DNA of 31,388 nucleotides, from positions 62,001-93,388 of the forward strand of contig JAVECL010000025.1 of the NCBI GenBank assembly GCA_051942245.1. Reading direction: 5' to 3'. Positions 4,132-31,388 of the stretch are shown piece after piece. Each line of letters opens with the position of its first letter. Position 1 is the first letter of the stretch. The translations under genes were made by a program, and so were the position numbers. The notes beneath the pieces were generated by a model. That model did not search any database and had not been told where the DNA came from. It saw only the letters and a list, made by a program, of their open reading frames with translations. This DNA is from Trypethelium eluteriae (lineage: Eukaryota).

Positions 4132-6076
4132 GGGTCCTCTTGCGACAACTCGAGATCGCCTCCCGCTCCTCCCGTCAAGTTTCTCCAATCTCTGTAATTT
4201 ATGTCTTCTCCGGGCCCCGGTACACTGGTCCCCTTGCTGTTACTTTTCCATGATTTCATCCCATTTCAAGGTTTTCAGGTCAAAGCGCCGCAAAAGGCTT
4301 CGGGCTTCGCAACTCTATCCTCTCTCGACTTTTCAAGTTCACCTAGGCCGGCATTGTATATGAATCATGATATTCTATAGATTTTTTTTTTCCACAGATC
4401 AGAATGAATCATTTACTTCAATGTTGTAGGACGGGGCGAACAGATGATCGAATATGCAGGAATGCCAATCCATAACCATGTTGAAATATAACTGACCTCT
4501 TGCTGCAGCACTGTTGGTTCTAAAACACATGGCGCTGGGTCTATGAAAGAATAGACAGACTCTTTGAAGGAGTTGCAGCGATACTCCGACTGTTAACGCT
4601 ACGGCGGTTTGATCTGCTCTGATTGTGATCGATCGGTATTACTGTATACAATTGAATGGCGCCTGACGTTCACCCTGCCGAATCACTGACGACCAGTCAA
4701 GCAGCTAGAATAACATTCTCGTCGATGTCTCGTCGCATTCAGGCAGGGGCTCTAATTCTAGAAGGACTTTGAGGCATTTTGCTCTTCAACCGTTGCGTAT
4801 CGAAGGGCACCATTGGAAGAGACAATACGGAGTATTCCTGTCACTGATGTTAGAAGAGACTCTACGAATTCTAGCTCTTCCGATAAGAAGACGCTAGTGA
4901 ACGGCCATAACCCCCATCAGATCTCAGCGCAGAAATAAATCTCTCAGGTCCACTGCCAGTGCTTTTGGTCAAAATGCCTCTACATGAGATCAGGATTCAT
5001 CGTTTAAGAAACGAAAGAGATTCCACCAATGAAAGGTTCGCGGCCCCTGTTTCAATTAAGGCTTGGCACGATGTGGTGGGACTATCTCACCACCTAATCT
5101 TGGAGAGGCCCCCTTCGCCACGAGAGATTTCTCCGGTTGATTAGGTAGGCGGCTATGACCGCTGATGGTGGAGCACCAGCAGTCTCAAGCTCCGGTCATC
5201 GTGCATTCGTTCTGATCTAGACGATCTATGCGACGTTCCGCGATCTTCAAAGAAGCCGAAATCCGACCATCTGAGGATCTGGCGGGCAGGTAGGGCGCGT
5301 CCCTGGTTCCAGTATGTAATGTCACCAGAGCACCCGCCGAGGACGAGTGGGTCCGTTTCAAGTTGAAGACTTCACAACCGCCACGGCCACCAGCAGCGCA
5401 ACGAGTCAACGGGAGAGGCAATCATTGCACTCACGCTGCAAATTCTGTCGATGCAACTTTTGAAAGTCAGCAGCCTCGCAAACATATCTACACCCGGTGT
5501 CACCATGCACTGGAGGCATCCAGTCGGTGTATGTGTGGGGTTTTAGGTGATGGGCAGGCACGCAGGGCAGGGTGGCAGGAAGGGCCGGGAGTGCAGGGTC
5601 GGAGCGGAAACCCCCTGCTAGCGCCATGTGCTGCTGGTTCCGCGCTGTAGGGAAATCTTCCTCCGTCACCTCGCCCACCTCGCCTCTCTGTTTCCACCAT
5701 CTTCCCTTGTTTGCATCGCTTGCCGACGACTCGCTTGACCCAGGCAGGCCCAGGGATTCATCGCATTGTCGATGGGTTTCCGTCGCTTCTGGCTTGAAGC
5801 GCCACCCGGAACCACCTCAATGCCTGCTCGAATCAGGTCTAGCCGCTTGGAACTTTCATAAACATGATACTGGACAATCTAGAAACGACGGCTGCCATTC
5901 GTCTGCCCCTTAGACTCCATGGCAACCGCTGTCATCCCATCGACCTTTACCTCCGCCGGACTAATGGACAGCCTGCGCAACACACCTTTAATCTATCCCC
6001 CGGCGTGATGAGATGACAGTAGCGCCATGTCACGAATGGCTTTAGTAGTGAGTGCTTCTAGTTATGTACGAGAAGG

Positions 6077-6082: not shown

Positions 6083-6278
6083 AAGTGAGAACTTCGCGTC
6101 AACAGTACCTCTTTCTTCTTCACCACAGTCAAGCCTGCTCAGCATTGGCGTTCCATTCTTTTGAACCATATTCAAACTTTTACTACTTCACTGAGTGAAG
6201 CTGGTCCTCCGATTCTCACGCTCTTTCCTGCTATACACATTCGTTCTCAAGACTCAGAGTCCACGCTATCTTTTTCAA

Positions 6279-7493
6279 ATGGCCACATTTTCGATTGCTG
6301 CCGCCCTTCTTGGGTTGGCCTCTTCCGTCTCCGCTCACGGCCAAGTCCAGGGCATTGTCGCCAACGGCGAATTCTACGAAGGATATAGCCCCAGCTTTCA
6401 GTACTCCAACCCGCCTCCCACTGTCATTGGATGGTCCATCCCTCAAGATCTTGACAATGGGTTCGTCGCCTCTAGTGCTCTCCAGACCGACGACATCATT
6501 TGCCACGTGAATGCCACCCCGGCTAAGGGCCACGCTGTTGTTGCTGCTGGCGATGTTGTCGAGCTCCAGTGGTCTGCATGGCCTTCCTCTCACCACGGTC
6601 CTGTGATTGACTACCTCGCCAACTGCAACGGCGCTTGCGAGACTGTCGACAAGACCAAGCTTGAGTTCTTTAAGATCGATGGTGTCGGTCTTGTCAACGA
6701 CAACCCTGTGCCGGGAACCTGGGCTTCCGACCAGTTGATTGCCAACAACAACAGCTGGGTTGTCACCATTCCTAAGAGCATTGCTCCAGGCAACTACGTT
6801 CTCCGCCACGAAATCATTGCTCTTCACTCTGCTGGCTCGGCCGGTGGTGCTCAGATGTATCCTCACTGCATTAACTTGCAGATCACTGGTTCTGGCACTA
6901 CTAAGCCCACTGGTACCCTTGGTACTGCTCTCTACAAGGAGGCTGACCCAGGTATTGAAGTCAACATCTACCAGTCTCTTTCTTACGTCATCCCTGGACC
7001 TAGCCCCATCGCCGACGCTGTCTCCATGAAGCAGTCTCAGCCCAGCATCACGGCCAATGGTGTCGTTGCGACCGGCTCCGCTGCACCTGCCGCAGCCGTC
7101 GCAGCAAGCTCATCTGTTGTCAGCGTCCCCGCTGCTGCTTCCTCCAGCAGTGCCGTTGTCGCTTCCAGTGCTGCTCCCTCAACCAGCGTCGTCAGCAGCA
7201 CTGTTGCTACCAGCGCCGCCGCCAGCGCTTCCGCTCCTGCTGTCTCTGCCGCAGCGTCCTCTGCCCTCGGCTTGACCTCTGCTCTCCCATCCTCCCTCCT
7301 CACCTCTGTCCTCCCCACCGCCGTGCCCACTGGTACCGCCTCTGGCTCCGCACCCGTCCCAACCAACCCTCTCCCCGAGGGTACCACTCTCCAGGACCTC
7401 CTTGACTGGGTGTCCTACGTTTTCGCCCAGATGTTCAAGGACCTTGAGTCTCAGCAGAACGAGCAAAACCACGCTCGATCCTTCCGAAAGTAA
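6279..7493 (+). CDS. Secreted AA9 (GH61) lytic polysaccharide monooxygenase with a Ser/Ala-rich C-terminal extension
   Basis: ATG 6279 in tcaaATG context (the ORF-track GTG start at 6195 is unlikely). Signal peptide [19 protein letters not shown] ends just before His1 (HGQV, codon 6336). Also [32 protein letters not shown] and GAQMYP (Gln and axial Tyr). Intronless. Confidence 0.97.
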
Positions 7494-19482: not shown

Positions 19483-20749
<1,267 letters not shown>

Positions 20750-21985: not shown

Positions 21986-24558
21986 ATGTGGGCCCCTGAT
22001 GACGGCTCCAAAGTCACCGGTTCTGTGGCGACCGAAATCACTATGGACCCAATTATGGACGAGGAGATCCAGGTAGTGCAAAGTACAGAACTGAATGGAG
22101 ACTACACCGTGGATCCTTCCGTATTCGCTCTTGGTGCGGTCCCCGTAAACGAGTCAACGATACAGCCCCTTGTCATTGATGATTCCCTATCGCCCGTAAC
22201 AGAAAACGGGTATGTGTCACTGCAACACCTCCACAATGGCACCAATGACTCTGCAGGTGAGACTGCGAGCTCTACCTCTTCCCACCAGAGTGCGTCGGAT
22301 GCCATGGATGTGGATTCAGGCTCGGAGTCTCATGAGCCCCAACGGATGATCTCTGTAGTCATCCCCCAGATGAAGTTTCCTCCGCTACCATATGCGTCGT
22401 CACGATCGGGTCTTGTATACGATGTACGAATGAGGTTTCACGCCGAGCCCATGACGTCCCGGCAACCGGACGACATTCATCCCGAGGATCCACGAAGGAT
22501 CCATGAAATATATCTAGAGCTCTTCAACGCCAATCTTGTTCACGATGTTATGACAAATGATTCTCCGACCGACTATCAGATGCTTCGCATTAACGCTCGG
22601 GAAGCCACAAAGCAAGAGATCTTGTTGGTACACGAAAAGAAGCATTATGAGTGGGTGAAGAGACTTGTAGAGATGACGAATGAGGAGAGGGAGATCATTG
22701 CTGCGAATTCAGACTCAATCTATGCGCATCAGTTCACCTACAGATGTGCCAAATTATCTGCTGGTGGTGCCATCGAAGCCTGTAGGGCGGTGGTTGCAGG
22801 ACAAGTCAAGAATTCCATTGCCGTGATAAGACCGCCTGGTCATCACGCTGAACCATACCAGGCCGGAGGCTTCTGCTTCTTCAACAATGTCTGCATAGCA
22901 GCTAGAGTCTGCCAGAAAGACTTTCCTACGAAATGCAGAAAGGTGTTGATCCTTGACTGGGATGTGCACCATGGGAACGGTGTCCAGCGGGCATTTTACG
23001 AGGATCCGAATGTGCTATATATCTCGATTCATGTGCACCGTGGCGGCCGTTTCTACCCTTGTACTAATTACGGAGACCACAAGCATTGCGGATCCGGACC
23101 TGGCGAAGGGAAGAATGTGAACATACCATGGCCCTGTCATGGGATGAAAGATGGCGACTACCTTCTAGCATTCCAACAAATAGTAATGCCTATTGCCCAG
23201 GAATTTGGCCCTGACTTGGTGATCATCTCGGCAGGCTTCGATGCCGCTGATGGAGATGAACTTGGCCAGTGTCATGTCACACCAGCCGGGTATGCCCATA
23301 TGACGCACATGTTGATGTCTTTGGCTAAGGGAAAGGTTGCCGTGTGTCTCGAGGGTGGCTATAATCTGCGGTCCATCGCAAAATCGGCCCTTGCTGTGAC
23401 ACGTACGTTGATGGGTGAGCCGCCGGACAGGCTGTTCTCTACAGAGCCTACTGCTGCTGGCGTCGAAACCGTGCAGATGGTGATTCGTTCGCAAGCAAAG
23501 TATTGGGCATGCATGTACCCAAAGTCTGAAAGCCAGGCCGATGGGGTGTTGCAAAAAGAACTACGAGGAGAACGTTTACATGATATATACCGGGCATGGC
23601 AGAGCAAAGAATGGTGGGACAGTTTCCGGATGACCCCTCTCTTCATACATCGCGATGTATTGTCCAAATCATTTGAACGGGAAGTACTCGCTACGTAAGT
23701 CTACCCAGAAACGCGCGCAGTTTGCCTCGTGAAAAGGCTAACACTGGGCACAGCTCCAATTACAGCGAATCTCGCCCACTGCTTGTAATCTTTCATGATC
23801 CGCCAGATGCACGGGGTTTGCCACATGCTCGCACAAGTAAGCTGGAGCTCCACAACGTTTGGGTGGTGAGTAACCCGCGCAGCCTTATGCTAGCGCGTTG
23901 CTGACCGCTTTTGAAAGACTGATGTTGCCAAGTCATACGTTGAGTGGGCGGTCCAGAACGATTTTGCTGTCATTGACGTCAACTTGCCCAAGCATGTCAC
24001 TGAAGAGAATGTTAGTCTTTGCTTTCCTGCTTTTGCAATGCGTCCCTGAGGCCTCTGACAACGGAGCAGGAAGACGAAACATATGCCGACCCAGACGAGA
24101 GCAGCTCCCGCTCCAACACCACCTTCGAACTCGCTACTTACCTGTGGGAGAATTACATTGAGGTTCACGAGTCGACTCATGTCTTTCTTCTTGGTATTGG
24201 TGATGCTTATCTCGGCCTGATCAATCTGCTTAGCAACCAGGAATCTTGTACCGACCGCATCACCTTCCTCATCTCCTTCGTCGCCGAAACGCCTCTCAAT
24301 CGTATCCGGCGCCCTGCCGACGAGGACGAAGTCGCCCGCTGGTTCTACCAGCACTCTCTTATCTTCGTCGCACGGAAGCACGGGCTCTGGGATCGCGACC
24401 GCAAGCCTCGTAAGAAGTTTGGGAGACTAGTCGAAAGCGCGTACGACGACTTGAACGAGATGTTGGTTGGGCATCGAGAGCAGGTGATGCGGCTACTGGA
24501 GCAGGAGACAGAGGAGTGGCGATTGGCGCAGCCGTTGGAGAGTCAGATCGGGAGGTGA
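21986..24558 (+). CDS. hdaA: Class II histone deacetylase (HDA1/Clr3/HdaA) with a C-terminal Arb2-like domain
   Basis: Exons 21986 (or 22043)-23694, 23754-23865, 23918-24010, 24070-24558. Motifs HPEDPRRI, RPPGHHA, GFCFFNN, DWDVHHGNG, SAGFDA, LEGGY; Arb2-like LLVIFHDPP, FAVIDVNLP and LATYLWENYIE. Start codon uncertain. Confidence 0.97.
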
Positions 24559-26047
24559 GGAGGTGGACTTCCTCTATTCTTGGGAGAAACTCAAGACCGT
24601 AGTCGGGCCGTGGGTTGGGCATGCTGTAGGCATTAGCATGGGGAAACGAGCGTGCATATTGAGGGAGTCTTGAGAAATGTAGAGGGGAAGCCTTTCGGTT
24701 TGAAGCGCTAAGCTCTTGGGTTGGTATATAGGTATGTCATCGAAGATCATCATGAAATCATTTCGCGGCCGGCCGATCCGTTTGCAAGATTGCCGCGTCT
24801 ATTGTCAATATAGAGATAGCGAAAGGACAATGCTCATCATTTTTCCACGAAGTTCCTGTTCCGTCCTCTTCTAGTGCTACAGTGCAGCCTTAACCCAGAC
24901 GTGCCGAGTACTTTCATGAACCAGCATAGCTATTTACTGCAGTCGGAGCTGCCATGGCTTAACCATCTCGCGCGGACAGCTGATAAAAAGGTGCTCGTAC
25001 AAAAATCGAGCAGGCATAGGCCTTGATTCTTTCCTCCTCCAGGAGTTGATTCTATGATCTACCGTGCTTTACCAAGCAAAAATTACAAGTAAGATACCGT
25101 AGTTTTCAGACTGGGCCCCTAAGTCGGTTAAACTTATCAGTAGAGGTATGGTCTGCGGCCGCAGGCGTAGATCGTGATCGTCACCATCGTGGTGCTGGTG
25201 CTACCCCGGACCGGCAAGCTAGGGGCATAGGATAACCTCCTTACTATCGTCAAGATAGACTGAATCTTTACACCTTTCGATTACAATACGTTCGAGCCCA
25301 AAGGCCGGAGATCAACCCACTCGGCGATCCAAACGAACACTGAACACCAATACTTGGATGGCTGTAACAAGCTTCCTTGCTCTCCCTTCTTTCCAAGTCC
25401 CAGGCATTGTAATTTCAACAACGAAGTCGGCCATCAGTGCATCACACACTACTCCGTTGGCCGTGGCTCAATTGAAAAGCTTCACTAACTACCCAAGATT
25501 TGATGATATACGGGCCGGCTAGGAGGAGAAGAAATCAGTAGATTCGCACACCTAGAGGATGGAGGGAATTATGAATCAGGTCTCAGACCCTTACGAGTGT
25601 TCACGTTGAGCTCTGCTCAAAGACGCGGACAGTTGAGACGCCGTGCACAGACAATGAAGAGATAATATCGGATATTACACTGATGGGAGGATGTTAGAGT
25701 AAGCAATCGGCACTGATGCGGGATGGTGTCGTATTTGACCTCTATCGCAACTGCCTGAATTGACTCATTGCGATGGTCAAACGATGTTCACTAAAATCGA
25801 CGGCCCAAAAATGTGGCTGAAGCGTACGCAGCTTTGCATCCTAGGTAAAACCTGTGAGGTAAGCAATGCATTCCTCTCTCCATATCTCTTTGTCTCAAGT
25901 AGCAATTAAACCCTGGCTCTCGCGCGAGCATGTGATTGTTTGCTGCGCCGGAAAGAGCTAGAATCTCGACTTCATTGTTATCATCTCTTCAATCATATAG
26001 TTGCTACTCTACCTTACAATTCTGCGACAGTCTCACCATCGCACAAA

Positions 26048-28558
26048 ATGCCGGTAACCACTAGGTCTAAGAGCCACCTTTTACCTATGGCGCAAGCTGT
26101 ACGGCCGCGGCATTCACTCAAGCCATCTAAGACAATCAAACGTTTGTCCAACCCCACAAACGCTGGTGCACCTAAGCAGCGCTGTGAGCCCAAAGGGGCT
26201 CGTTGCTCCGCGCAGAAAGCACACAAGAAATCAGACACATGACGAACCTCCGATGATAAAGAATCGCCTCAAGACTCTAGGCAAGAGGAAGTATCTCAAT
26301 ATCTCATTAGACAAGAACCGCCTCAGATAGCCAGCAAGCCTCCTTCACCGGTTTTCTCCAAAAACACTGCGCAATCCTTTTGGCCTTGTCGATATTGCTC
26401 TTGCCCTGAAGGAATTTTCGAAGGCCTAATCAATAGCTGTGTTCGGTGTGGGCACGAGATGCTTCATCATCATCCAGATACTTCTCATCCTTGGAATGAT
26501 GGAGGTGATTACACCTGCGAGCGACAGGAGCTCGTTACCTCGATTCTGGACATGGCAGTACAGACCAGAGTTGTAGCTATCCGTGCGACACCTCAAGTTG
26601 GAAAGACGACTCTACTTTACCTGCTTGGCAAACACATCCTTATGAAGGAGCCGAAGCTAGAGCCGATATATCTCAATTGGAAAAATAGGGAGGAACGGGA
26701 AGGTCTGCCATATCAGCAATATCTTGAACAGGCGAAGGTCGTATGGGAAGAAAAGAATGCAAAACTTCGCTCTTGCGATCCAAACGCCCGAAGGATCTAC
26801 CTTATTGACGAAGCGCAAGACTCGTACGAGGAAGGAGAATTTTGGACAGACTTGGTCAAAAATCATAACACAAGACATCAGGACATCTTCGTACTTGTCT
26901 GTGTTTATGGTGCTCACGGCGTTTCCCATACACGCGATCCGAACATTGAATCCCAGGCGCTTCGCATGCACTCACTCCACCTCATCGAGCTGCGTCCGTC
27001 CAAGCCTGGCCACCCATGTATGCTCTTCAAGTTTGAGGAGACAGTTGTCGTAGTTGACAAATGGGCCATTGAGCACGAATTCCAGCTCGAGGACGGTGTT
27101 CATCGATACCTCCATCGTGCAACTGATGGGCACCCCGGTATGATTGGAATGCTGCTAAACCACTGTGAACAAATGTTTTACAAGGTATGCCCCCAATGGT
27201 GTATATCAAGGTGTAGCTTTTTGTTAATAATTCTCCAGCTCCATTTTCCCCGGACGTTATCACCGACTTTATGTCACAAGCTGCTGGTCCAGCACGAGAA
27301 TAATTTCGTCGATTGGCTTGTTTGTTGGGGAAGAGGAATCTGGTCACCATGGGCTGAGCAGTTTGTGCAAGAACGTCTTCGTCGCTCGCCCATGTACAGC
27401 CATCTTGGGTTTCGAGATATACAAAGTGCGCTACGCCAAGTCGCCTTGCAACCTTACGGCTTAACTCATATACGGGAAGATCTTGATGCGTTTGCATTTT
27501 GTCACAAGATGGGCTACCTACATACCGAGCAGCCGATTCTGGGGAGAGCAGGGACCATCTTTACTTTTGCATCTCCGTTGCATCGAAGGGTCGCTTATCG
27601 CCGTCTTTTTCCGGGCCGAGAGCCAGACGCTGTGCTGAAGAACCTTAGTCTCCAGCAGATTTGTGTCAACGCTGTTGCTCGATTCAGCCCAAGCACTCTC
27701 CAGAATCGTCGACATCTTCAGACTAACGGAGATTGGGGCATCCCGGAAGCTGCATTTCAGGATGAACTCTACTGCTGCCTCAACCTTGAACTCCATTATC
27801 TTCCTATTCTATCGGAATATTCTCATACCAAAGCGGGTCGCATAGATTTCTATATCTCCGATCGAAAGTGGGGGATTGAAGTGCTGCAATGTGGAAATAA
27901 AACGGAAATCGCTAAGCACACCTCCCGATTCGCGCTTGGCGGCAACTATCAAACGTGGGATATTATGGATGATTACATCATTCTCAATTTCTGCTCCAGA
28001 TCCGCGCTTTGGAAGAGCAAGGTTGAAGGTAAGCTCCCTCGCCATCCATTTTTCACTAAAGAGGTCCACGTTAATCTTCAGTACTAATTCATATACTGAG
28101 TAGACGAGAAAATCCAATCGCACGTCTTCCACGTTGTAATAGAGCCTGACGAGTCGGTTGCAGAGGTTTATACCTACGACAAACAGTTGCATAAGTCATG
28201 GTCATTAGGCGAAGGAAGACAAAGATTCAATGCAGACGACTTCGCCGATTTCATCGACCAATCATCCGACGCAGACGATGATTGTATGCCGTTGCAAGAT
28301 GAGCCAACACAGAGAGAGCGGGCGATGATAGGAGAAATAGAGAAGATGAAGCGGCAGAGGGAGCGAGAGTTGAAGGAAAGGGAGCGAGAAAGGCAGGAGA
28401 GGGAGCAAGAGATGGAGGTATTGAGGCAGGCGAAAGAGGAATGGGAGCGAGCGAAGGAGGGGACGAGGCCACAGATGGTGCGAGAGCAGAATGGAGACGA
28501 GAAATTGCAAGAGCAGGACAAGTCAAGGTCAGGAGGAGGTAAGAAGAGAAAGAGGTAA
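26048..28558 (+). CDS. Zn-finger + P-loop NTPase + PD-(D/E)xK-like nuclease + coiled-coil/NLS protein (Crinkler/RHS-effector-like core); interrupted by an in-frame TGA at 26240-26242, so possibly a pseudogene
   Basis: caaaATG at 26048 is in frame with the 26459 ORF. Cys/His cluster CRYCSC-x10-CVRCGHEMLHH; Walker A ATPQVGKTT; Walker B IYLIDEAQ; TDGHPG; nuclease-like PEAAFQDELY...SEY...GRIDFYI...WGIEVL. Introns 27185-27238 and 28029-28103. Last exon is E/R-rich and ends GGGKKRKR. Confidence 0.8.
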
Positions 28559-28982
28559 AGCAGAATAGAAAGAGCGTACAGTTGGTCTTCAGAAGTTTTC
28601 GTGCTTACAGAACTAGATCAGAATAGAATCTATTTCTTGGAGATGCCGTAGTGTTGATGTAGTCTTCTCCCAAAATTTATGTGGTGCCTATGGAGTTTTT
28701 AGAACTGATACAATTAATCAGAATCAAGACAATTATCGTTGCTCTTACAGAGATAAATCAAGAGCTGATCTAAAGTAGGTAAGTACCTTAGTAGGATAGG
28801 CAAGCGCTGTGCTCCTTCATTTTCGTATAAGGGAGGTGAGGGAGGGGTGAAGAGGACGAGTGTAAAGGATGCCCACCGCATGCATGCGCAACAACACGTG
28901 ACGAGAGTACGGACGGAACCTTAAGGTAAGGTATGGTACTCCGCAGATCATCAGGAAATTGTCCTAGCATCGAACCTCGCTA

Positions 28983-29548
28983 TTGAGCTTTGTTGTTACC
29001 ACTCCGTCCTACGCGATCACCACACCGACCAGGTGTTCTATCGTCACTGGACACGTGCGCGCACTGAAAGAACTGACAGATGAAGACCGAGACGTCGATC
29101 TGAGCTACGAAACAACCTCTCCGATTCTAGAAACCCGAAGACCTTTCCAGAACTCTTCAAGCTTTTCCCTCATCCGTATCCAGTAGCTTCCATCTTTCGT
29201 AGCACTCTCAAAACTACAGTTGCGTTCGCTATACCAGTAAAAGATTACCTCTACGCGGATTATGGACATTGACAATGTCGAGAACTTCCTTCGAATACTC
29301 TGGGAGGCTTGCGATAAGAATCAGCTGAGTGCAACATAATGACAGGCTGCATCTGCATCGGGCTGGCGGAGATTGACCGGTTGGTGGAGGCTGAATCGCG
29401 CAGCATGCAGGATATTTCAGGCAATGCGGAACATGAGTATATTTCATGCATTATGTCCGGATTAAGAAGTTACATACAGTCTTATCTTGCGTCGCACGGC
29501 GTAGGTACTGAGTATGCGGTATATGGAGAAACAATTTCTCTAGGTTAG
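28983..29548 (+). pseudogene. Possible degraded gene relic
   Basis: Consecutive short protein-like + strand frames broken by stops and frameshifts (MDIDNVENFLRILWEACDKNQLSAT*, then CICIGLAEIDRLVEAE...IMSGLRSYIQSYLASHGV). No family recognised. Confidence 0.3.
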
Positions 29549-30138
29549 AGATCTTGGCCGATCTTTCTATTCTACTCAACTCGGTGCCGATTTTTTAACT
29601 CCTTTTCAAGAACCGACCACTAAATCATTTCGTGGTATGCACCTTTCTCATGAAGGCAAGATCACATCTACAGCATCTATTCATTTTGACAAGACCCGGA
29701 TCAAGTTAGACTCCGCGCCTCAAGCCAGGCTGAGATCCTGCTTTTGTGCTCTACTTAGAGACTTTTTACGTGGGGCTATGTCCCGTCCAAGTGCTCGACC
29801 ACTAATACTACCTTTTGCGCTCCACGAGAATTGTCGCGCGTTCCTTGCGCCTGCTTCACCCTCTGCAGGAATCCGGAAATGGCAATGTTGAGCGTAGTGC
29901 AGATGTCTGCGCCGGCAGATGGGATAACGACAATGTCGTGCTTTGCTACCCTACTACGACCCTGTCAGACAAGCAGCCTTGCCTTCATGTGATGGTCTCG
30001 ACGGAGCTCTTTTCTTAGATCCTGATTAATTCTTTTTTCCTTGCCTACGGTTTTCCTCCAGCTTGTGTTTCTGCTGTCTCATGCCAACTGAAATTAAGGA
30101 TCTACTTTGACACAAAGTTGATATCTTCCTCTTTTCAG

Positions 30139-31388
30139 ATGTTTTCCTTCCTTGAAGCAGGCATTTTAATACTGCTTACTCTCGTATTGGGGTCAATGGC
30201 TCAATCAAGCACGGCCTCAAGTTCAGGTACAAGTTCAGCAACATCTCAAGCACCTCCTCAAACACACACCGTCACTGTCGGTAAAGGAACAAACTCATAC
30301 GATCCTGATACGATCCAAGCCCTTCCCGGCGATTTGATAGTATTCGAGTTCTTCCCAACAAATCATTCCGTAGTAAGAGCGTCGTATGGCTACCCGTGTG
30401 TCCCATATGAGGACACTGCTGGACCTGATGCCGCCGGATTTTTCTCAGGCCACTTCCCTTTGGAGACAATTCAGCCAAACGTAAGTCACTTGAAGAGGTC
30501 ACCTCGCGAGGGACTTTCTACTCATCCAGTATGGATCTACGACTGATAGCTTTCTTATAGCCACCAACTTGGAACCTAACGGTGAATGACACAGAACCGG
30601 TATTCTTCTATTGCTCAGCAGTTGGATCATGTATTGACTTTCAGATGGTTGGAGTGATCAATCCTGTATGGAAACCATTGCATTTCTTTCAGGACCATTC
30701 CTTTCTGACATTTGAGATTAGAATGGAACGGAATTTTTGGCAAATCAAAAGGCTGCCGCTAAAGCAGCTGACTATATGCTCGAACCAGGTCAGCCGTTCC
30801 CGGAAGAAGCAGCATCATCAATGTCTTCAATAGCCGCTACTGCAACGGCAACTGTCACCTCCGCGACCAGTGCACCTACAACTGCTGGCCCACCCTTGAC
30901 CGTAACCACCACGCACACTGGCCTCTCTAGCGGCGCCATTGCCGGCATCGTCGTCGCCGGCTTCATCGTCCTCCTCCTCGGCGCCGCGCTCTTTTTCTTC
31001 ATCGGCCGCAACTCCACCCTCCGCCAAGCCCTTGCCTTCACCAGCCACCCTTCTCCGACCGCCCGATCCTCCATGGCTCCTCCGCCCCCTCCACCGGCGA
31101 AAGACATGTCCTACCCAACCGACCACACCCTCCCCACCATCTTGCCTTACAAATCCGACCCCTGCGCCCCACATCACCGTATCCCCTCTTACGACGTACC
31201 GCCTTACTCCCTCGCAGCCAGCCCAACCCCAGACGCCGTTGCTGGCTGCGCTCCCACTGCTGAAGAGCTGAGCTCGGTTGTCGGGAGCAGCCCGCGTATG
31301 AGCCCACGGTCGTTCGGGCCTGGGCCGCGCTACACACCGGGCACGGAATACGGGAACTTCTTGGCGACTGGGGGGATGGGGGATCAGA
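30139..31388 (+). CDS. Fungal extracellular Ser/Thr-rich cupredoxin-domain protein with one TM helix; 3' end runs past the window
   Basis: Exons 30139-30480, 30561-30665, 30722 to the edge. Signal peptide; THTVTVG...PGDLIVFEFFPTNHSVV...PC...GFFSG...VNDTEPVFFYCSAVGSC...MVGVINP; S/T-rich stalk; TM LSSGAIAGIVVAGFIVLLLGAALFFFIG; Pro-rich tail. The ATG directly follows cttttcag, so an upstream exon or UTR intron is possible. Confidence 0.88.

What the first reader, a model, noticed from the sequence alone, without database searches (positions are those of the whole stretch)
26048..28558. Accessory nuclear-targeted Zn-finger/NTPase/restriction-like nuclease gene among housekeeping genes
Seen: after removing two introns the frame is about 793 codons. 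It runs basic N-terminus, CxxCxC...CxxCGH..H cluster, P-loop NTPase (variant Walker A ATPQVGKT, Walker B LIDEAQ, GHP helix motif), a nuclease-like E...D...E triad (FQDE, RIDF, WGIEVL, with L in place of the usual ExK lysine), a charged coiled coil and a terminal KKRKR NLS. No signal peptide is visible. Known: NTPase + restriction-endonuclease-fold cores typify Crinkler/RHS-type effectors and related selfish elements. Inference: a non-secreted nuclear version could act on DNA inside the fungus, as a selfish element, a cell-death or non-self-recognition toxin, or an anti-parasite nuclease. It is the only non-housekeeping gene here and has about 1.5 kb of gene-poor DNA on each side.
Basis: partly seen in the sequence, partly recalled or inferred. 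Interest (0 to 1): 0.75.

Follow-up and report, generated by a model that had tools for sequence, protein, structure and literature searches.

The report
Zinc-headed Crinkler-type nuclease, stop-broken allele
A lichen-fungus gene encodes an ATP-switched DNA-cutting protein of the Crinkler effector family whose usual delivery domain is replaced by a small cysteine/histidine cluster, a form shared by many sac fungi that probably acts inside the fungus's own cells, although this copy is interrupted by an early stop codon.

Summary
A 793-aa protein from another genome differs only at codons 65 and 455, so this is an isolate-level nonsense allele or a base error. The protein is a Cys/His header + STAND-like AAA+ NTPase/lid/winged helix + restriction-endonuclease fold + coiled coil + KKRKR. 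Its core is homologous along its length to basidiomycete proteins with Pfam Crinkler headers; in ascomycetes the Cys/His cluster takes the header's place and the two headers never co-occur. The missing lysine is family-wide, not decay. The gene is single-copy here, has no terminal repeats, shares both introns with relatives and is under purifying selection, while relatives are patchy, duplicated and in unlike neighbourhoods. Best reading: a cell-internal, ATP-gated conflict nuclease evolving by birth and death; defence versus selfish killing is open. New variant of a known kind; Zhang et al. 2016 could not be read and may list it.

The parts
26048..27184 (+). Exon 1 (codons 1-379): basic, low-complexity N-terminus, premature stop, Cys/His header, AAA+ domain and lid
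   Evidence: start shared with full-length relatives
26240..26242 (+). In-frame TGA at codon 65; a sense codon in public run X1 and in protein P0327
26387..26470 (+). Cys/His header (C-x2-C-x-C ... C-x2-C-x-H-x4-H), putative zinc-binding; no Pfam or PDB relative
   Evidence: five Cys and two His invariant where present in 22 of 29 close relatives and in 6 of 6 DNA loci aligned; searches found no other family
26585..26608 (+). Walker A, ATPQVGKT
26801..26818 (+). Walker B, LIDEAQ
   Evidence: D in 29 of 29 close and 42 of 43 distant relatives
27128..27139 (+). GHPG, the GxP motif of the STAND-type helical lid
   Evidence: G invariant in 72 of 72; motif name recalled
27185..27238 (+). Intron 1, 54 nt, in frame and stop-free
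   Evidence: 18-residue insertion against relatives; intron at the matching place in L002 and L003
27239..27613 (+). Exon 2, first part: helical and winged-helix domain
   Evidence: model residues 80-459 align to archaeal AAA+/winged-helix ATPases and NLR cores
27614..28228 (+). Restriction-endonuclease-fold domain (spliced 505-684, interrupted by intron 2); putative active site E555, E572, D582, E593, Q596
   Evidence: pLDDT 90.8; BamHI Z 8.1, BglII 7.7, OkrAI 7.5, BstYI 7.5; conservation
28029..28103 (+). Intron 2, 75 nt, with TACTAAT branch-like site
   Evidence: matching intron in L002 and L003
28332..28478 (+). Charged E/R-rich coiled-coil-like tail built from degenerate 21-nt repeats; length varies widely among relatives
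28541..28558 (+). KKRKR, candidate nuclear localisation signal, and stop
   Evidence: basic tail in 12 of 26 close relatives

Best explanation
An ascomycete branch of the CR (Crinkler-RHS-type) NTPase + winged helix + REase family that works inside the fungus as a switchable conflict nuclease. Shown: domain order, folds, kinship of the core with Crinkler-header proteins, replacement of that header by a Cys/His cluster, selection on the nuclease domain, birth-and-death pattern. Inferred: the basic ends bring the protein into the nucleus; the STAND-like module holds the nuclease off in the ADP state; a trigger (foreign DNA or a non-self protein, read by the Cys/His header or winged helix) drives nucleotide exchange and oligomerisation, which brings REase domains together; E555/E572/D582/E593 bind metal, the polar residue three after the last Glu (Q596) stands in for the usual lysine, and DNA is cut, destroying the invader or killing the compartment. 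The window's allele is a null (or an assembly base error); an open allele exists in the species, as expected for a dispensable, costly gene.
For: Fold: NTPase region matches archaeal AAA+/winged-helix ATPases (2qen Z 16.9, rmsd 4.3, 282 aligned; 2fna Z 15.5) and then NLR and Avs STAND cores; the isolated C-terminal domain gives restriction-fold nucleases in all top 10 rows. Kinship: a profile of close relatives finds proteins with a Pfam Crinkler header at E 1e-31 to 1e-29 over profile positions about 65-545 (P0199, P0203, P0217), named as basidiomycetes; 8 of 102 rows carry PF20147. Headers: of 101 fetched full-core proteins 45 have the Cys/His header, 12 a Crinkler header, none both. Catalytic residues kept: E508/E525/D535/E546 of P0001 in 29 of 29 close and 40-42 of 43 distant relatives; dN/dS about 0.06 for the REase domain against L002. 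Turnover: several copies per species (Massariosphaeria 5, Pyrenula sp. 4, Polyplosphaeria 3) that fall in different clades; 4 of 4 distinct metagenome loci with usable flanks have different neighbours, one head-to-head with a PNP_UDP_1 gene, two just behind a DNA element with terminal repeats. Literature: NTPase+HTH+REase is the commonest CR core, the REase is held to be the toxin and the NTPase its regulator, and non-secreted plant CR proteins were proposed to target invasive DNA (PMC5289972, section 11 and passages read).
Against: No activity, localisation or expression data. The REase Z-scores are middling (best 8.1; the tool warns that Z under 8 can be a common arrangement) and Foldseek gave no match at E 0.001, with ketohexokinase on top. 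No lysine at E+2 in any of 72 aligned proteins, so catalysis is inferred. There are no sensor repeats, so what would trigger it is unknown. The basic tail is missing in 14 of 26 close relatives. Botrytis cinerea members differ by only 0-12 residues in 630, which is not the deep allelic divergence typical of het loci (recalled). dN/dS rests on one pair near saturation (pS 0.58-0.73). This allele is broken.
Confidence: 0.5

Rival explanations
1. A selfish one-gene killer (Medea1- or Spok-like): the nuclease poisons meiotic products or nuclei that do not inherit the gene, while the NTPase or header gives self-resistance; once fixed it decays, hence the nonsense allele.
For: Medea1 has the same CR-NTPase + CR-REase plan and CifB nucleases derive from it (PMC11342252, section 19 read); SPOK1 kills through DNA damage by a restriction-like domain controlled by a second domain (PMC9972908, abstract and passages); patchy, multi-copy, non-syntenic distribution; a null allele here and a split annotation in one B. 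cinerea strain.
Against: E+3 is Q or R, not the His that defines the CR-REase7/Medea1/CifB clade; no kinase domain; conserved introns and a position among ordinary genes; no Starship or other carrier seen in the window; no segregation data.
Confidence: 0.17
2. A domesticated, possibly catalytically weak DNA- or chromatin-binding ATPase with a regulatory or repair role in some lineages.
For: Single copy here; low dN/dS; introns shared; present in all 12 named B. cinerea cluster members; no catalytic lysine.
Against: All acidic active-site residues are kept, also in Crinkler-header relatives that equally lack the lysine; a premature stop is tolerated; neighbours differ at every locus seen; copy number varies between species.
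Confidence: 0.13
3. An unconventionally exported effector acting on the lichen alga, plant host or competing microbes, like classical CRNs.
For: Core kinship with CRNs; most CRN-like proteins of Rhizophagus also lack signal peptides (PMC6131194, passages); relatives occur in lichen fungi and plant pathogens.
Against: The Crinkler header credited with translocation is absent (no hit in 25 of 25 close members); the family also occurs in saprotrophs and truffles; single copy, no expansion here.
Confidence: 0.1
4. The gene is, or rides in, a mobile element and the NTPase-nuclease serves its transposition.
For: NTPase+REase modules are linked to prokaryotic transposons (PMC5289972); L007 and L005/L006 are 94% identical in an exon yet have different neighbours; DNA elements lie just upstream in 2 of 4 loci.
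Against: Both of those elements close their terminal repeats before the gene starts (L002 3346-4721, gene at 4892; L006 4292-6736, header at 7184); no convincing terminal or target repeats in window 24500-30200; flanks unique in the genome; no RIP signature.
Confidence: 0.1

Closest known systems
CR (Crinkler-RHS-type) proteins with NTPase + HTH + REase core (Zhang et al. 2016, not read; as described in PMC5289972 and PMC11064341)
   Same: Domain order and folds; whole-core sequence homology to proteins with a Pfam Crinkler (PF20147) header; no signal peptide; basic NLS-like stretch.
   Different: The ubiquitin-like header is replaced by a Cys/His cluster behind a basic low-complexity leader; the close clade adds a C-terminal coiled coil; single copy instead of an expanded family; free-living or lichen ascomycetes. 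The review names Ubl, helical and Myb-HTH headers but no zinc-type one in the section read.
Tribolium Medea1 and Wolbachia CifB (CR-NTPase8 + CR-REase7; PMC11342252)
   Same: NTPase + REase plan; an extra Glu on the first core strand; a conserved polar residue three after the catalytic Glu.
   Different: That residue is Gln (close clade) or Arg (distant clades), not His; no evidence of killing or of a partner antidote gene.
Podospora Spok spore killers (PMC9972908, PMC12693581)
   Same: Non-secreted fungal protein with a restriction-like nuclease and a second, regulatory nucleotide-using domain; patchy multi-copy family.
   Different: Spok has a kinase after the nuclease and a catalytic lysine; here an AAA+ NTPase precedes a lysine-less nuclease. 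No sequence comparison with Spok was run.
Archaeal AAA+/winged-helix ATPases (PDB 2qen, 2fna) and STAND NTPases of NLRs and Avs systems
   Same: AAA+ domain, GxP lid and winged helix superpose (Z 10-17); weak Pfam AAA_14 and nSTAND3 hits in 12 of 25 members each.
   Different: No NACHT or NB-ARC hit, no sensor repeats; the effector is C-terminal.
BamHI / BglII / OkrAI / BstYI restriction enzymes
   Same: Best structural matches of the nuclease domain; these enzymes also lack the lysine (ExE or ExQ, recalled).
   Different: 6-14% identity; the polar residue here is at E+3; residue-level superposition could not be inspected.

Membership tests
CR (Crinkler-RHS-type) NTPase+HTH+REase proteins | P-loop NTPase, HTH and REase domains in this order | tested here: met
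CR (Crinkler-RHS-type) NTPase+HTH+REase proteins | Core homologous to header-bearing CR proteins | tested here: met
   P0199, P0203, P0217 at E 1e-31 to 1e-29 across the core, Crinkler header above cut-off in these 3 of 50 scanned
CR (Crinkler-RHS-type) NTPase+HTH+REase proteins | Assignment to a numbered CR-NTPase / CR-REase clade | not testable with these tools
   Zhang et al. 2016 and its alignments are not held
Classical Crinkler (CRN) effectors | N-terminal ubiquitin-like header (LxLFLAK...HVLxxP, PF20147) | tested here: not met
   no Crinkler hit at E 0.1 for the query or any of 25 close members; Cys/His cluster instead
Classical Crinkler (CRN) effectors | Translocation into a host cell | not testable with these tools
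   only a hydropathy check was run
CR-REase7 / Medea1 / CifB clade | Glu on the first core strand | tested here: met
   E525 of P0001 in 29 of 29 and 40 of 43, on strand 65-69 of the domain model; definition
CR-REase7 / Medea1 / CifB clade | His three residues after the catalytic Glu | tested here: not met
   Q in 28 of 29 close, R in 36 of 43 distant relatives
PD-(D/E)xK / REase superfamily | Alpha-beta-beta-beta-alpha-beta core fold | tested here: met
   model pLDDT 90.8; top 10 of 50 rows are restriction-fold nucleases, best Z 8.1, rmsd 4.4, 139 aligned; Foldseek alone inconclusive
PD-(D/E)xK / REase superfamily | Canonical lysine at (D/E)xK | tested here: not met
   E+2 is L, M, I, V, T; no K among the commonest residues in 72 rows; known variants of the fold also lack it (recalled)
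PD-(D/E)xK / REase superfamily | Metal-dependent nuclease activity | not testable with these tools
   needs an assay
Fungal NLRs (STAND) | STAND-type NTPase with lid and winged helix | tested here: met
   Pfam NACHT and NB-ARC not hit
Fungal NLRs (STAND) | C-terminal sensor repeats and N-terminal effector | tested here: not met
   no repeat family; nuclease is C-terminal
Spok spore killers | Kinase resistance domain after the nuclease | tested here: not met
   only a coiled-coil tail follows; no Pfam hit for the last exon
Spok spore killers | Spore killing in heterozygous crosses | not testable with these tools
   needs crosses
Autonomous DNA transposon | Terminal repeats, target duplication, transposase, dispersed copies | tested here: not met
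   counts in this genome are lower bounds

The most novel reading that the evidence does not exclude
A previously unrecognised, Pezizomycotina-wide family of one-gene poison-antidote elements: an ascomycete counterpart of beetle Medea1, in which a STAND-like ATP switch and a new Cys/His header (in place of Spok's kinase) protect carriers while the lysine-less REase cuts the DNA of sibling spores or non-self nuclei; the codon-65 stop would be a decayed allele of a driver that no longer pays.
Probability: 0.17. Interest if true: 0.8.

Novelty: new variant of a known kind. Interest (0 to 1): 0.42.

Why it matters
CR proteins are studied almost only as oomycete and early-diverging-fungal effectors. 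This family shows the same NTPase-nuclease core in lichens, moulds, truffles and leotiomycetes with the delivery header swapped for an uncharacterised Cys/His domain, all annotated as hypothetical proteins. It offers a tractable test of the idea that CR cores act inside their own cells against invasive DNA or as selfish killers, of how a STAND switch gates a nuclease in eukaryotes, and of whether an E-x-x-Q/R active site cuts DNA. A genetically tractable member exists (B. cinerea BCIN_12g01700).

Tried and rejected
Programmed read-through or editing of the codon-65 stop: rejected, the codon is a sense codon in X1, P0327 and the closest relative P0014. An intron removing the stop: one GT..AG candidate without a branch site, contradicted by ungapped alignment. 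Start at a later ATG (codons 138, 169, 199; P0003 is annotated from 169): rejected as the true start because the N-terminus is conserved, though re-initiation there is not excluded. Passenger in a transposon: rejected for L002 and L006. RIP: composite index -0.76 for the gene against -0.61 for the window. Paralogues in this genome: none with P0001, P0143, P0020, the header alone or the DNA (lower bounds); the Crinkler family search found nothing but its controls were also silent, so it is uninformative. No RNA holder listed, no evidence either way. PDB by sequence: nothing significant. Foldseek on the nuclease domain: nothing at E 0.001. PADLOC: nothing for P0001, P0003, P0020; only P-loop-level hits for the other 3 of 6. 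Header in other architectures: 10 hits, 9 family members and one 158-aa fragment ending before the NTPase; ESM Atlas blank. Bacterial relatives: the one hit in prokaryote genomes (L014, a 3.4-kb contig of a MAG) looks intron-broken and fungal, so it was set aside; ESM Atlas lists bacterial AAA_35 clusters at 0.94-0.95 as leads only. A 29-codon tblastx hit of L006 to the window's SelO gene was taken as a linked-score artefact. The careful tree did not finish; the quick tree was used. Literature: searches found no paper on this ascomycete form or on the gene tags tried; Zhang et al. 2016 and its supplements are not held and may already list it. No complex prediction was run.

Full report
1. Observation. 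The frame opened by ATG 26048 runs through two introns (27185-27238 and 28029-28103) to the stop at 28558, 794 codons with the stop. The start is nevertheless right: 11 of the 15 proteins fetched begin MP(V/A/S/P)xT, and the closest relative P0014 aligns through the stop without a gap. The only public run listed, X1, is a DNA contig set that differs from the window at 2 of 5,901 bases, 26242 and 27464, both in this gene. A 793-aa protein from another genome, P0327, differs from the window's read-through only at the same two codons, 65 and 455. X1 and P0327 may have one source and are counted once. So the gene model is independently confirmed, an open allele exists, and the window holds either an isolate-level nonsense allele or a base error. 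The nearest named records are labelled Trypethelium eluteriae and Viridothelium virens, lichen-forming fungi.

2. Anatomy. Pfam gives only a sub-threshold AAA_14 hit. The model of the 614-residue open part (mean pLDDT 69) matches archaeal AAA+/winged-helix ATPases best (2qen Z 16.9, 282 aligned; 2fna Z 15.5), then plant and animal NLR and Avs STAND cores (Z 10-15); Foldseek agrees at the AAA+ level. The C-terminal domain folded alone on an 86-row alignment is confident (pLDDT 90.8). VIA-align puts BamHI (Z 8.1), BglII (7.7), OkrAI and BstYI (7.5) on top; all top 10 and, by my reading of titles with some folds recalled, about 42 of 50 rows are restriction-fold nucleases. Against this, the Z values are middling and Foldseek found nothing at E 0.001. 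In an alignment of 29 close and 43 distant proteins chosen for covering the core, the acidic residues E555, E572, D582 and E593 (spliced numbers) are invariant in the close set and kept in 40-42 of 43 distant ones; the position of the usual lysine is hydrophobic throughout, and E+3 is Q (28 of 29) or R (36 of 43). The missing lysine is thus a family trait, shared with Crinkler-header members, not decay of this copy. The four best structural matches are themselves lysine-less enzymes (recalled), and CR-REase7 uses a strand-1 Glu and an E+3 His (PMC11342252, section 19), so an E+3 substitute is plausible but inferred.

3. Family. The word search gave 90 proteins; every named one is an ascomycete hypothetical protein. 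A profile search of 1.84 billion representatives gave 1,688 hits at E 0.001. I scanned 50 of the 150 listed, those covering most of the core: 3 carry a Crinkler header above the Pfam cut-off and 3 more below it; the five of these with names are basidiomycetes. A second profile gave 8 of 102 rows with PF20147. Distant ascomycete members (Aspergillus, Paecilomyces, Tirmania, Kalaharituber) instead carry the same Cys/His cluster as the query. Among 101 fetched full-core proteins (redundant alleles included; Crinkler labels only) 45 have the Cys/His header, 12 the Crinkler header, 29 are too short in front, 15 have something else, and none has both. A quick tree of 60 rows places Cys/His-header proteins in several clades and Crinkler-header proteins within one weakly supported clade; copies from one species fall in different clades (midpoint root, fragments left out). 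That the Cys/His header replaced the Crinkler header is an inference from the wider spread of the latter (PMC5289972). The header matched no Pfam family consistently, no solved structure and no other architecture; zinc binding is inferred from the pattern.

4. Context and evolution. The gene is single-copy in G000 by four protein queries and its DNA (lower bounds), lies between a histone deacetylase gene and a cupredoxin-like membrane protein gene (label recalled; Pfam silent), and shows no convincing terminal repeats or RIP. L002 lies 170 bases behind a Tc1/mariner element, L005/L006 behind another element with 25-nt terminal repeats, L003/L004 head-to-head with a PNP_UDP_1 gene (a common NLR effector domain, recalled), L007 among housekeeping genes. 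Both elements end before the gene, so it is not their passenger. These are not loci of close relatives, so synteny within the lichen order is untested. Both introns recur at matching places in L002 and L003, and dN/dS against L002 is about 0.21 (NTPase), 0.27 (winged helix) and 0.06 (REase), near saturation. Several species hold 2-5 copies. B. cinerea has it in 12 named cluster members, differing by 0-12 residues in 630, with one strain annotated as split.

5. Mechanism. Shown: architecture, folds, kinship, header swap, constraint, turnover. Inferred: nuclear import by basic ends, nuclease held off by the ADP-bound STAND-like module, trigger-driven oligomerisation, DNA cleavage. The review of the CR classification says that NTPase+REase is the commonest core, that the REase carries toxicity under NTPase control, and that non-secreted plant members may target invasive DNA (PMC5289972, section 11 and passages). 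I put 0.5 on an intracellular defence or conflict nuclease, 0.17 on a Medea1- or Spok-like selfish killer (PMC11342252 section 19 and passages; PMC9972908 abstract and passages; PMC12693581 passages), 0.13 on a domesticated regulator, 0.1 on an exported effector (PMC6131194 passages) and 0.1 on a mobile element. The window's allele, if real, is probably null; re-initiation at codon 138 or 169 would give a protein without an intact header.

6. Novelty and verdict. It works like, and by core homology belongs to, the CR NTPase+HTH+REase family; it is not a classical Crinkler, not CR-REase7, not an NLR with sensor repeats and not a transposon. Eight searches found no description of an ascomycete Cys/His-header form, but the defining paper (Zhang et al. 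2016) and its supplements could not be read and may list it. Also seen: PMC11064341 (passages), PMC12957317 (abstract), bioRxiv 10.1101/2022.03.16.484565 (passages). Verdict: real gene, broken allele, new variant of a known kind, interest 0.42.

Noticed in passing
window 26240-26242 and 27464: The only two differences from public run X1 in 5,901 bases both change this protein; the coding part is about 40% of the stretch, so this can be chance.
   Followed up: partly
window 26240-26243: The premature stop is followed by C, a leaky context (recalled), but it is not conserved, so no programmed read-through is claimed.
   Followed up: partly
proteins P0021, P0328-P0337 (B. cinerea), residues 537-558: Allelic differences cluster in the first helix of the nuclease domain (537, 549, 552, 555, 558), and position 555 varies across Botrytis species (H, Y, F, R, Q); possibly a specificity or recognition surface.
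   Followed up: partly
L002 3346-4721 and L006 4292-6736: DNA elements with terminal inverted repeats inserted 170 to about 450 bases upstream of family members in 2 of 4 loci; L006's element has no Pfam hit.
   Followed up: partly
L004 1-1221 (minus): PNP_UDP_1 domain gene head-to-head with a family member, about 600 bases apart; could be an NLR-type partner.
   Followed up: no
L014 118-2272: A Crinkler-header-like, apparently intron-broken family member on a 3.4-kb contig of a bacterial MAG; probably fungal contamination.
   Followed up: partly
protein P0118: Botryobasidium member with the whole NTPase-nuclease core twice in tandem (1,143 aa).
   Followed up: no
proteins P0007, P0008, P0010, P0029 and others: Many relatives are annotated from the Met inside the Cys/His cluster; whether upstream stops or introns cause this could not be checked without their DNA.
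   Followed up: no
No named relative is a sordariomycete; weak, since most rows are unnamed and the searches are limited.
   Followed up: no
window 6195-7490: AA9 lytic polysaccharide monooxygenase gene among housekeeping genes in a lichen fungus.
   Followed up: no
window 19732-20646 (minus): 305-codon stop-free antisense frame over the GAPDH gene, no Pfam hit; likely a codon-bias shadow.
   Followed up: partly
window 29544-29891 (plus): 115-codon stop-free frame in the downstream gap, not examined.
   Followed up: no
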